64,000 nt of DNA from Candidatus Micrarchaeota archaeon (GTDB lineage Archaea > Micrarchaeota > Micrarchaeia > Micrarchaeales > CABMGC01). The notes beneath the pieces were generated by a model. It saw only the letters and a program-made list of their open reading frames with translations. It did not search any database and had not been told where the DNA came from. The DNA is taken from contig JAKATZ010000014.1 of assembly GCA_021827925.1 (NCBI GenBank), positions 3,551 to 67,550 of the forward strand. Reading direction: 5' to 3'. How positions within the stretch are numbered: the first letter of the stretch is position 1; the number at the start of each line of letters is the position of its first letter. Both the position numbers and the translations under genes were made by a program. Below are positions 13,512-54,081 of this stretch, one piece after another.

Positions 13512-13612
13512 TGCAGGGGGAGAGATTTGCTCGGATTGCATTTTGAACTCTCGTAGGCCTAAGCCAACAGATCTTGAGTCTGCCGCATTTGACCAAGCTC
13601 TGCCACCCCTGC
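13512..13612 (-). tRNA. tRNA-Leu (anticodon CAA), class II, with a putative 16-nt intron in the T-loop
   Basis: Folded by hand. The acceptor stem GCAGGGG/CCCCTGC is perfect. The anticodon arm is GCAGA-CUCAAGA-UCUGU and there is a long variable arm. The T stem is GAGAG/CUCUC, but the loop is 23 nt (UUCAAA-AUGCAAUCCGAGCAAA-U) instead of UUCAAAU. The insert lies at about 13526-13541. Confidence 0.75.
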
Positions 13613-14693: not shown

Positions 14694-16133
14694 ATGGAGC
14701 TGAAGAAGATTTCTGAAGTGAAATTTGAGATTGAAAAGGGAGCCGTGCTTGGAATGAACACAGGAGTTACCGTGTACAGCACTGAAAACATGCTGCATAA
14801 GATAATGCAGGACAGGACTCTCCAGCAAGCCGCGAATGCTGCCACTCTTCCAGGCCTTGCGGGTAACGTGCTTGTAATGCCCGATGGGCACGAGGGCTAC
14901 GGTTTCCCGGTAGGAGGAGTAGCTGCCTTCGATGCGGAAGACGGCATCATATCCCCGGGAATGATAGGATTCGATATTAACTGCGGAATACGCGTTATAA
15001 AGACCAACCTGGTTGAAAAAGAGATCAGGGACAATGCCAAGAAACTCGCGGATGCCCTTTTCGAGAATGTTCCCAGCGGGGTAGGGAGCAAGAGGAATAC
15101 AGGCATAGGGGAGAGAGATCTCCAGAAGGTAGCCGAGGAGGGAGTGGGGTTCATGATAGGCAGGGGTTTCGGTCGCACGGACGATCCAGAGAACCTGGAA
15201 GAGAAAGGACACATGCTCGGAGCCGACTTCTCCAAGGTGAGCAGGGAAGCAAAGGCAAGGGGTCTCAATCAGCTAGGCACATTAGGCGCGGGAAACCATT
15301 TCCTTGAAGTACAGGAAGTCGAGAAGGTTTTTGACGAGGGCATAGCCAGAGCGTACGGCCTGCATGAGGGAGAGGTTGTAGTGATGGTGCACACTGGCTC
15401 AAGAGGATTCGGACACCAGATATGCAGCGATTACCTCAGGAGCCTTCTCACATACCAGAAGGAGCACGGGATAACGCTTGTTGACAAGGAGCTGAGCTAT
15501 GCAAGGATAGGTAGCCGCGAAGCTTCTGATTATCTTGCTGCAATGAAATGCGGAGTTAATTATGCATTTACAAACAGGCAGATAATCACAGATTCCATAA
15601 GAAAGAGCTTTGAGCAAGTTTTCGGAAAGAGCTCCGATGCGCTTGGAATGGATATACTTTACGATGTTGCGCATAACATAGCCAAGCTTGAGGAGCATAG
15701 AGTCGCTAACAGTAGGAGGAAGGTTTATGTACACAGGAAGGGCGCTACAAGAGCTTTTCCGAAAGACATGGGTGAGGTGCCTAAGAAGTACAGACACATT
15801 GGGCAGCCTGTCCTGATACCCGGAAGCATGAGCACAGGCAGTTACATACTCTGCGGCATGGAAGGCTCCATGAGCGAGAGTTTTGGATCCTCATGCCACG
15901 GATCCGGACGGGTGATGTCAAGGCACCAGGCACTCAGGGAGATACCTTCGTCTAAAACCTTCGGGGTACTGAAGAGAAAGAACGTAGAGATAAGGATAAA
16001 GACCAGAAAGCTCGTCAGCGAGGAGGCGGAGTGGGCGTACAAGAGCGTCGATGAAGTAGTAGGAGTTGTAGAGAAGGCAGGCATATCAAGGATAGTCTCA
16101 AGAAACGTACCGCTGATAGTTATAAAGGGCTGA
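14694..16133 (+). CDS. rtcB: RNA-splicing ligase RtcB
   Basis: PDGHEGYGFPVGG, GFDINCG, GAGNHFLEVQ, HTGSRGFGHQ, HRKGATRA and SSCHGSGR. Confidence 0.95.
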   Translation: MELKKISEVKFEIEKGAVLGMNTGVTVYSTENMLHKIMQDRTLQQAANAATLPGLAGNVLVMPDGHEGYGFPVGGVAAFDAEDGIISPGMIGFDINCGIRVIKTNLVEKEIRDNAKKLADALFENVPSGVGSKRNTGIGERDLQKVAEEGVGFMIGRGFGRTDDPENLEEKGHMLGADFSKVSREAKARGLNQLGTLGAGNHFLEVQEVEKVFDEGIARAYGLHEGEVVVMVHTGSRGFGHQICSDYLRSLLTYQKEHGITLVDKELSYARIGSREASDYLAAMKCGVNYAFTNRQIITDSIRKSFEQVFGKSSDALGMDILYDVAHNIAKLEEHRVANSRRKVYVHRKGATRAFPKDMGEVPKKYRHIGQPVLIPGSMSTGSYILCGMEGSMSESFGSSCHGSGRVMSRHQALREIPSSKTFGVLKRKNVEIRIKTRKLVSEEAEWAYKSVDEVVGVVEKAGISRIVSRNVPLIVIKG

Positions 16134-52305: not shown

Positions 52306-52403
52306 TGGACTCCGCGGGATTTTCATAACTTCTCGCGAAGTTTATTTTGAACCCGCAACCTCCTGCATGCCATGCAGGCGCGCTACCGTTGCGCTAGGAG
52401 CCC
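52306..52403 (-). tRNA. tRNA-Ala (anticodon GGC) with a putative 26-nt intron in the T-loop
   Basis: Folded by hand. The acceptor stem GGGCUCC/GGAGUCC includes the G3:U70 Ala identity pair. D stem GCGC/GCGC; anticodon arm CCUGC-AUGGCAU-GCAGG. The T stem is GCGGG/CCCGC but the loop is 33 nt (UUCAAA-AUAAACUUCGCGAGAAGUUAUGAAAA-U). The insert lies at about 52320-52345. Confidence 0.8.
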
Positions 52404-52440
52404 ATCAGCAGAAGATATGTCCACACTGATGTATAAAGCT

Positions 52441-53306: not shown

Positions 53307-54008
53307 TTACTTCGCCTTTATCTCGGTCTTAACCTCGAAATCCGAGAGTTTGTAATTGAATTCCTCGTTAGCCTTTATTAAGCCTTTCTCCTTCATGAAC
53401 TCCCTTGCAAGAAGGAAGTATATTAGCGAGAGCGATCTCCTACCCTTGTTGTTGCAGGGTATTACAAGGTCAACGAACTTTATCCAGTTGTCGGTATCGC
53501 ATAGAGCTATTGAAGGTATGCTCGTTTTATTGGCCTCCTTGACTGCCTGACGTTCGTTGCGGTTATCGCTTATGAGTATTACCTCAGGCTCCATGAAGTC
53601 TCCCCTGTTGGGGTTTGTGAATATACCAGGCATTACCCTGCCGGTTATTATTTTTGCCCCTATTATCTCGGCAAACTTAGAAGCGGAGGATATCGCGTAT
53701 ATTCTAGATGCCGTTACGACTATATCCTTGGGCTCGTACTGTGCCAGAAGCTTCGCTGCAAGCTTGAGCCGCTGGTCTATGGTGTTAAGATCAAGCAGGT
53801 ACAGGCCGTCCTCCCTTACCTTGTAGATGTAGCGCTTCATTCCGGGGGTCTTTACCTTAGTGCCTATGTGTATTCCTGCTTCAAGGTATTCGGCTTGGTC
53901 TACAAGCAACTCATTTGACATTTCTTCACCATAATCGGGGTCGCCGAGATTTTCAATCGCTTTTGGTATTTTTCGTTTTTGAACTCGGGTCATGTGCTCC
54001 CTAAGCAC
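53307..54008 (-). CDS. rps2: Ribosomal protein uS2
   Basis: YLEAGIHIGT, the REDGLYLLDL block and I.SIALCDTD. The true start may be an internal ATG (for example 53918). Confidence 0.9.
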   Translation of the reverse strand: MLREHMTRVQKRKIPKAIENLGDPDYGEEMSNELLVDQAEYLEAGIHIGTKVKTPGMKRYIYKVREDGLYLLDLNTIDQRLKLAAKLLAQYEPKDIVVTASRIYAISSASKFAEIIGAKIITGRVMPGIFTNPNRGDFMEPEVILISDNRNERQAVKEANKTSIPSIALCDTDNWIKFVDLVIPCNNKGRRSLSLIYFLLAREFMKEKGLIKANEEFNYKLSDFEVKTEIKAK

Positions 54009-54081
54009 AGAGCCTAACCAGGCTAGCAGACGACCCCGCGCTTAGTTTATTGCATATAATGTTATTTATATCCTTCTCTAA

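What the first reader, a model, noticed from the sequence alone, without database searches (positions are those of the whole stretch)
52306..52403. tRNA-Ala(GGC) interrupted by a 26-nt hairpin insert at the same T-loop position as tRNA-Leu(CAA)
The cloverleaf is otherwise perfect and includes the G3:U70 alanine identity pair. The T-loop, however, is UUCAAA-AUAAACUUCGCGAGAAGUUAUGAAAA-U. The insert folds on itself (AACUUC-GCGA-GAAGUU, 6 bp). Excising 26 nt (about 52320-52345) restores UUCAAAU. The second occurrence has the same junction context (UUCAAA|AU ... AAA|U). This argues for a genuine, recurrent intron class at T-loop position ~59/60 rather than a random disruption. It also implies a splicing endonuclease able to recognise relaxed bulge-helix-bulge structures.
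Basis: partly seen in the sequence, partly recalled or inferred. Interest (0 to 1): 0.6.

Follow-up and report, generated by a model that had tools for sequence, protein, structure and literature searches.

The report
T-loop intron in archaeal alanine tRNA
This is a real alanine tRNA gene of a tiny acid-mine archaeon, interrupted in its T-loop by a 26-base intron of a kind already described in its relative ARMAN-2; new here are its conservation across the order and look-alike introns in several other tRNAs.

Summary
Window 52403..52306 (minus strand) is the genome's only tRNA-Ala(GGC) gene. It has a 58-nt 5' exon, a 26-nt intron (52345..52320) and a 14-nt 3' exon.

- **Motif:** the exon-intron borders form a strict bulge-helix-bulge (BHB) motif that fixes the cuts at position 59/60. 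It is not a relaxed motif.
- **Enzymes:** the genome encodes a full-length three-unit epsilon2 splicing endonuclease (PDB 4fz2, E 1.5e-154). The residues shown to be essential in ARMAN-2 are conserved. An RtcB ligase is also present.
- **Recurrence:** seven tRNA genes of this genome carry a T-loop intron. Three lie in the window.
- **Relatives:** 41 of 59 orthologues in the order carry an intron at the same site. Their central helix shows compensatory changes. The 18 uninterrupted orthologues match the predicted spliced product.
- **RNA evidence:** no RNA data were available, so splicing is inferred.

The kind is known: 59/60 introns and their cleavage by epsilon2 EndA were shown for ARMAN-2 (PMC3239211). 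The added result is an intron sequence family that sits at 59/60 of six tRNA species across the order, with up to 95% identity between different host tRNAs. This suggests the intron spreads between tRNA genes.

The scan noted the sister Leu(CAA) case (e1-3574073) and a mobile BHB intron in another Micrarchaeia genome (e1-5230199).

The parts
52346..52403 (-). 5' exon of tRNA-Ala(GGC), tRNA positions 1-59 (58 nt). It includes G3, the GGC anticodon and U54-A59 of the T-loop.
52320..52345 (-). 26-nt BHB intron at position 59/60
   Evidence: The strict BHB scan followed by ARAGORN after in-silico removal finds it. The uninterrupted orthologues equal the spliced product.
52306..52319 (-). 3' exon, tRNA positions 60-73 (14 nt), with U70 and discriminator A73. 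No CCA is encoded.
52348..52351 (-). 5' strand of the central 4-bp BHB helix, U54-U55-C56-A57
   Evidence: Position 57 covaries with intron position -6.
52322..52325 (-). 3' strand of the central 4-bp helix (UGAA, intron positions -6 to -3). It is followed by the bulge AA|U60 that holds the 3' splice site.
52327..52342 (-). inner helix of the BHB: a 6-bp hairpin with a GCGA tetraloop, plus one further U:A pair outside these coordinates
52432..52437 (-). TTTATA, a candidate archaeal TATA box about 30 nt upstream of G1
   Evidence: Read directly. This is inferred, not tested.
13512..13612 (-). tRNA-Leu(CAA) with a 16-nt T-loop intron. The best motif is a bulge-helix-loop cut at 58/59, using a slipped T-stem.
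53936..54037 (-). tRNA-Pro(AGG) with a 28-nt T-loop intron (53950-53977) at 59/60. ARAGORN and Rfam both miss it.
14826..16130 (+). RtcB RNA ligase gene, the exon-joining enzyme
   Evidence: Pfam PF01139, E 5.1e-161, at G000:C27:18376-19680

Best explanation
The locus is the single functional gene for tRNA-Ala(GGC) of a Micrarchaeum-like (ARMAN-2-related) archaeon. It carries a 26-nt protein-spliced intron between tRNA positions 59 and 60.

In the precursor, U54-U55-C56-A57 of the T-loop pair with UGAA near the 3' end of the intron. This 4-bp helix is flanked by two 3-nt bulges, A58-A59|A and A-A|U60. Outside it lies the T-stem stacked on the acceptor stem. Inside it lies the intron's own hairpin with a GCGA loop. 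Together these form a strict hBHBh' motif.

The homodimeric three-unit epsilon2 EndA encoded on contig C25 would cut in both bulges. RtcB would join the 58-nt and 14-nt exons, and CCA would be added afterwards.

Shown here: the anatomy, the enzymes, conservation, compensatory changes, and identity of the spliced product to uninterrupted orthologues. Inferred: transcription, the actual cleavage and the actual ligation.
For: 1. **Strict BHB at the borders the cloverleaf requires.** ARAGORN calls tRNA-Ala(ggc) after removal. The BHB conformer lies only 0.9 kcal/mol above the minimum free energy, at -43.1 against -44.0.
2. **Orthologues.** In 59 genomes of the same order, 41 have an intron of 13-44 nt at exactly this site and 18 have none. 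In 36 of the 41 the central helix is fully paired. A57 goes with U(-6) 27 times and G57 with C(-6) 9 times, and A57 never occurs with C(-6).
3. **Spliced product.** Uninterrupted orthologues have the predicted spliced sequence and score 64-71 bits on Rfam tRNA.
4. **EndA.** The gene is a 406-aa single ORF carrying two N-terminal-domain and two catalytic-domain Pfam matches. It aligns over its full length to ARMAN-2 epsilon2 EndA (4fz2, E 1.5e-154). In that alignment Y254, H270, K301, R294, W403 and the loop lysine K179 line up with Y236, H251, K282, R275, W384 and K161 (their roles are described in PMC3488258).
5. **RtcB is present**.
6. **Experimental precedent.** ARMAN-2 epsilon2 EndA cleaves a 59/60 T-loop intron in vitro (PMC3239211, PMC3488258).
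7. **The gene is needed.** It is the only GGC copy found, and GCC plus GCU make up 34.5 of every 1000 codons in long ORFs.
8. **Not an assembly artefact.** Contigs from a second, independent study carry the 3' exon, the intron and part of the 5' exon with no difference inside the gene.
Against: - There is no RNA evidence of any kind.
- The minimum-free-energy fold does not form the weak UUCA:UGAA helix on its own.
- The assembly is 93% complete, so a second copy on unassembled DNA cannot be excluded.
- The promoter assignment rests on one TTTATA read by eye.
Confidence: 0.9

Rival explanations
1. The gene is a dead tRNA pseudogene, disrupted by a random insertion or by the remnant of a mobile element. 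Alanine GCC/GCU codons would then be read by another tRNA.
For: Standard tRNA finders reject the locus. Many relatives have an uninterrupted gene.
Against: The insert sits at the same nucleotide in 41 genomes. It keeps a BHB with compensatory changes while the rest of its sequence and its length drift. Both exons are perfectly conserved. No other GGC copy was found.
Confidence: 0.03
2. The insert is never removed, and the mature tRNA carries an enlarged 33-nt T-loop.
For: The inner hairpin is stable.
Against: An enlarged T-loop would abolish the conserved T-loop to D-loop elbow (established tRNA knowledge). It would not explain why the intron's 3' end always complements U54-R57. The cognate endonuclease is present.
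Confidence: 0.03
3. The insert is an assembly or chimera artefact inside a multi-organism metagenome bin.
For: Contigs of all four runs break inside the highly conserved tRNA body at about 52373-52376, where depth rises to thousands.
Against: Contigs from two studies run from unique flanking DNA through the 3' exon and the intron into the 5' exon, without differences there. Forty other genomes have the same arrangement.
Confidence: 0.01

Closest known systems
Non-canonical 59/60 introns of ARMAN-2 (Candidatus Micrarchaeum acidiphilum) pre-tRNA-Cys(GCA) and pre-tRNA-Pro(GGG) (Fujishima et al. 2011, PMC3239211)
   Same: The lineage, the T-loop position 59/60 and the enzyme type (epsilon2 EndA) are the same. 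The Pro(GGG) 59/60 intron also forms a strict hBHBh' motif. The tRNA set is heavily disrupted in both cases.
   Different: The host tRNA here is Ala(GGC), in a different genus. The intron is 26 nt, against 13 nt in Cys. Cys(GCA) is a relaxed hBH motif, whereas this one is strict. Whether ARMAN-2's own Ala(GGC) has this intron could not be checked, because the paper's supplement is not held.
Non-canonical BHB introns of Crenarchaeota and Nanoarchaeota (positions such as 53/54, 56/57 and 59/60; review PMC4090602)
   Same: The motif logic is the same: the exon supplies one strand of the central helix. The set of insertion sites is also the same.
   Different: Those lineages use heterotetrameric (alpha-beta)2 EndA. 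Here the enzyme is the single-chain three-unit epsilon2 type.
[quoted passage not shown] 2010, as summarised in PMC4090602)
   Same: Near-identical introns sit in tRNA genes of different identity (up to 95% identity between an Ala(GGC) host and a Ser(GGA) host).
   Different: The phylum and the endonuclease type differ. Every copy found here sits at one site, 59/60, although the search pattern itself required that site. No paper held in the library pairs 'intron transposition' with Micrarchaeota.

Membership tests
Archaeal protein-spliced (BHB) tRNA intron | Removing the insert yields a canonical cloverleaf tRNA. | tested here: met
   ARAGORN calls tRNA-Ala(ggc) after removal. The product equals the uninterrupted orthologues, which score 64-71 bits on RF00005.
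Archaeal protein-spliced (BHB) tRNA intron | Two 3-nt bulges are separated by a 4-bp helix at the two splice sites and flanked by helices (hBHBh'). | tested here: met
   The central helix has 4 of 4 pairs. The outer helix is the T-stem stacked on the acceptor stem. The inner helix is 1+6 bp.
Archaeal protein-spliced (BHB) tRNA intron | The motif is maintained in evolution while the intron sequence drifts. | tested here: met
   There are 41 orthologous introns of 13-44 nt, 36 with a fully paired central helix. The A57:U to G57:C change is compensatory. The relatives are not independent samples.
Archaeal protein-spliced (BHB) tRNA intron | A splicing endonuclease and an RNA ligase are encoded in the genome. 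| tested here: met
   EndA is at C25:507-1727. RtcB is at window 14826-16130.
Archaeal protein-spliced (BHB) tRNA intron | A spliced RNA with the exact A59-U60 junction is observed. | not testable with these tools
   No RNA run holding this DNA is listed.
epsilon2-type (three-unit) EndA | A single polypeptide carries the alphaN, alpha and betaC units. | tested here: met
   The 406-aa ORF has two PF02778 and two PF01974 stretches. It aligns with 4fz2 residues 11-387 in one stretch.
epsilon2-type (three-unit) EndA | The catalytic Tyr/His/Lys triad and the ARMAN-specific loop lysine are present. | tested here: met
   Y254, H270, K301 and K179 align with Y236, H251, K282 and K161 of ARMAN-2 (read from the alignment; residue roles are from PMC3488258).
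epsilon2-type (three-unit) EndA | The enzyme forms a homodimer and cleaves strict and relaxed motifs. | not tested
   This was shown only for the ARMAN-2 enzyme (PMC3239211, PMC3488258, PMC12397907).

The most novel reading that the evidence does not exclude
The Ala(GGC) intron may be a shortened member of a T-loop-specific intron family that spreads between tRNA genes of Micrarchaeales. The long form is about 40 nt, begins AUAAACUUUU and ends UGAAAA or GGAAAA.

The universal U54-U55-C56-R57 of every tRNA supplies half of the BHB central helix. Position 59/60 would therefore act as a ready-made landing site for any intron ending in YGRR-AA. That would explain why seven tRNAs of one genome, and six tRNA species across the order, carry introns there.
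Probability: 0.5. Interest if true: 0.5.

Novelty: new member of a known kind. Interest (0 to 1): 0.3.

Why it matters
**For annotation.** Standard tRNA finders miss 7 of roughly 45 tRNA genes in this genome, three of them in this window. As a result, Ala GCC/GCU, Leu UUG, Arg AGA/AGG, Pro and two Ser isoacceptors look absent.

**For biology.** The 59/60 intron of tRNA-Ala(GGC) is kept across two families of an order with compensatory changes. The same intron sequence family sits in six different tRNA species. This gives a second lineage, independent of Thermoproteales, in which to study how archaeal tRNA introns are gained and moved. It is also a lineage whose endonuclease has a solved structure and a working in-vitro assay.

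Tried and rejected
- **RNA evidence.** The look-up of sequencing runs listed no RNA holder, so expression and splicing could not be examined. The DNA contigs laid show only that the intron-bearing form exists in two studies.
- **Published ARMAN-2 tRNA table.** The supplementary table of PMC3239211 is not held.
- **Possible second Ala(GGC) gene.** ARAGORN's 'tRNA-Ala(ggc) i(38,12)' on C5 looked like a second copy. Its anticodon loop reads CUGGAAA and it has a long variable arm, so it is tRNA-Ser(GGA) with two introns.
- **59/60 register for Leu(CAA).** This register gives only 2 of 4 central pairs. The 58/59 register with a slipped T-stem gives 4 of 4.
- **Recent copying within this genome.** Apart from the constrained 3' end, I saw no similarity by eye among this genome's seven T-loop introns, so nothing points to recent copying within this genome.
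- **Unresolved partial Rfam hits.** Those at C13:23685-23740 and C20:3675-3732 were not resolved into convincing tRNAs. C31:5617-5712 gave nothing.
- **A slow search.** A fuzzy-regex search timed out and was replaced by blastn.
- **Bacterial promoter scan.** It found nothing, and it does not apply to archaea anyway.

Full report
**What is there.** On the minus strand, window 52403..52306 reads as a tRNA-Ala gene.
- The acceptor stem is GGGCUCC/GGAGUCC with the G3:U70 alanine identity pair.
- There is a 4-bp D-stem, an anticodon arm with GGC, and a 5-nt variable region.
- The T-stem is GCGGG/CCCGC, the discriminator is A73, and no CCA is encoded.
- The T-loop is UUCAAA, then 26 nt, then U.

ARAGORN and Rfam at gathering threshold both miss the gene. 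Rfam at a lax threshold gives a 25.1-bit partial match to model positions 8-63, which stops at the insert.

**Where it is cut.** Flanking A runs allow four registers (56/57 to 59/60) that give the same product. I scanned the whole genome (969 kb, 33 contigs) for the strict archaeal motif. On each strand this motif is four paired bases, then a 3-nt bulge cut after its second base, with flanking helices. I then ran ARAGORN on the in-silico spliced sequences.

The 26-nt deletion at 59/60 passes this test.
- U54-U55-C56-A57 pair with UGAA at intron positions -6 to -3.
- The bulges are A58-A59|A and A-A|U60.
- The outer helix is the T-stem continuing into the acceptor stem.
- The inner helix is one U:A pair plus the 6-bp hairpin with a GCGA loop.

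The strict motif occurs at about 1.5e-4 of all position and length pairs, so a chance fit at these borders is about 6e-4. The minimum-free-energy fold keeps the hairpin but not the weak central helix. With that helix enforced, the energy is -43.1 against -44.0 kcal/mol. This intron is therefore a strict hBHBh' motif at a non-canonical position, not a relaxed one.

**Enzymes.** Pfam searches of the genome find one 406-aa ORF at C25:507-1727 (minus strand). It has two N-terminal-domain and two catalytic-domain matches. It aligns end to end with the ARMAN-2 epsilon2 EndA structure 4fz2 (E 1.5e-154).

In that alignment Y254, H270 and K301 match the catalytic triad Y236, H251 and K282. R294 and W403 match the RNA-recognition residues. 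K179, in GSYKAAER, matches K161 of the ARMAN-specific loop, which confers broad specificity (PMC3488258, PMC12397907).

RtcB lies in the window at 14826-16130. Full-length epsilon-type EndA was found in 59 of 60 sampled relatives of the order. The organism is thus a relative of Candidatus Micrarchaeum. The DNA occurs in mine-drainage and sediment metagenomes.

**Recurrence within the genome.** Two scans gave the same seven tRNA genes with an interrupted T-loop. One was a relaxed BHB scan. The other was independent of any BHB: a T-stem, then TTCRA, then a gap, then the complementary T-stem and a matching acceptor stem.

| tRNA | Intron length | Location |
|---|---|---|
| Ala(GGC) | 26 nt | window 52306-52403 |
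| Pro(AGG) | 28 nt | window 53936-54037 |
| Leu(CAA) | 16 nt | window 13512-13612 |
| Arg(TCT) | 24 nt | contig C6 |
| Arg(CCT) | 34 nt | contig C14 |
| Ser(GGA) | 32 nt, plus a canonical intron | contig C5 |
| Ser(CGA) | 29 nt, plus a second intron | contig C32 |

Five of the seven end in UGAAAA before U60. Arg(TCT) ends in UGGGAU and Leu(CAA) in GAGCAAA. Leu(CAA) is the relaxed case. Only a slipped register, cut at 58/59 with no inner helix, gives four central pairs. No second Ala(GGC) gene was found. GCC and GCU codons are common, at 34.5 per 1000.

**Relatives.** The gene was found in 59 of 60 sampled genomes of the same order, and 58 of these hold the whole gene. Counting this genome as well gives 59 complete genes.
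- 41 have an intron of 13-44 nt (median 28) at exactly this site: 25 in the same family and 16 in a sister family.
- 18 are uninterrupted.
- The central helix is fully paired in 36 of the 41.
- A57 goes with U(-6) 27 times and G57 with C(-6) 9 times. A57 is never seen with C(-6).

The Fisher p-value of 3e-7 overstates the case, because the relatives are not independent. The uninterrupted genes are identical to the predicted spliced product apart from ordinary substitutions. They score 64-71 bits as tRNA, while intron-bearing ones go undetected.

Contigs of a second study carry the flank, the 3' exon, the intron and part of the 5' exon without differences inside the gene. This rules out an assembly artefact.

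**What is known already.** Position 59/60 is on the published list of non-canonical archaeal intron sites (PMC4090602). [quoted passage not shown] The finding is therefore a new member of a known kind.

**Extra observation: an intron sequence family.** Secondary matches led me to other tRNAs of relatives whose T-loop introns begin like this one. I then searched for a pattern made of the T-loop, AUAAAC, a gap and GAAAW. It hit 30 places in 26 of 201 genomes of the order, and none with the reversed control.

The 30 hosts, all interrupted at 59/60, are:
- Arg(TCG), 12
- Ala(GGC), 7
- Ser(GGA), 4
- Arg(CCT), 3
- Arg(TCT), 2
- Lys(TTT), 2

I re-read ARAGORN's labels for the Ser genes by hand.

Introns in different host tRNAs are up to 95% identical over about 40 nt, for example Ala(GGC) in G122 against Ser(GGA) in G112. 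One genome, G112, has family members in three tRNA species. The pattern fixed the first six and roughly the last five bases, but the shared interior (AAAAAGUUUAAUCAAAAG) was not selected for.

The intron studied here shares only its 5' nine and 3' thirteen bases with the family, so its membership is plausible but weaker. This resembles the intron transposition described for Thermoproteales (PMC4090602, citing Fujishima 2010). I found no paper reporting it for Micrarchaeota. An earlier scan note (e1-5230199) describes a related case in another Micrarchaeia genome.

**Limits.** No RNA run holds this DNA, so transcription, cleavage and ligation are all inferred. The promoter is a TTTATA read by eye at 52432-52437. 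The assembly is 93% complete.

Noticed in passing
window 53936-54037 (-): An unannotated tRNA-Pro has anticodon AGG (A at the wobble position) and a 28-nt T-loop intron at 53950-53977. Its D-arm looks irregular. ARMAN-4 and -5 were reported to have tRNA-Pro(AGG), and ARMAN-2 Pro tRNAs have a one-pair D-arm (PMC3239211).
   Followed up: partly
L076-L105 (relatives of the order), with window 52320-52345 as a possible short member: A T-loop intron sequence family (AUAAACUUUU..AAGUUUAAUCAAAAG..UGAAAA) sits at 59/60 of Ala(GGC), Arg(TCG/CCT/TCT), Lys(TTT) and Ser(GGA). Identity between different host tRNAs reaches 95%.
   Followed up: partly
G000:C5:29301-29432 (-) and G000:C32:46105-46231 (-): tRNA-Ser(GGA) and tRNA-Ser(CGA) each carry two introns: one in or beside the anticodon loop and one at 59/60. 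ARAGORN mislabels the first as Ala(ggc).
   Followed up: partly
G000:C13:13244-13348 (-): tRNA-Leu(TAA) has an insert of about 20-24 nt in the D-loop region. No clean BHB register was found.
   Followed up: partly
G000:C27:2251-2347 (+), just outside the window: After removal of a 22-nt canonical intron, ARAGORN calls this gene tRNA-Ile(TAT). This matches the report that ARMAN genomes use tRNA-Ile(UAU) instead of the agmatidine route (PMC3239211).
   Followed up: no
window 52346-52405: In all four metagenome runs the summed contig depth over the 5' exon rises to thousands, and contigs break at about 52373-52376. The tRNA body is shared by many community members.
   Followed up: no
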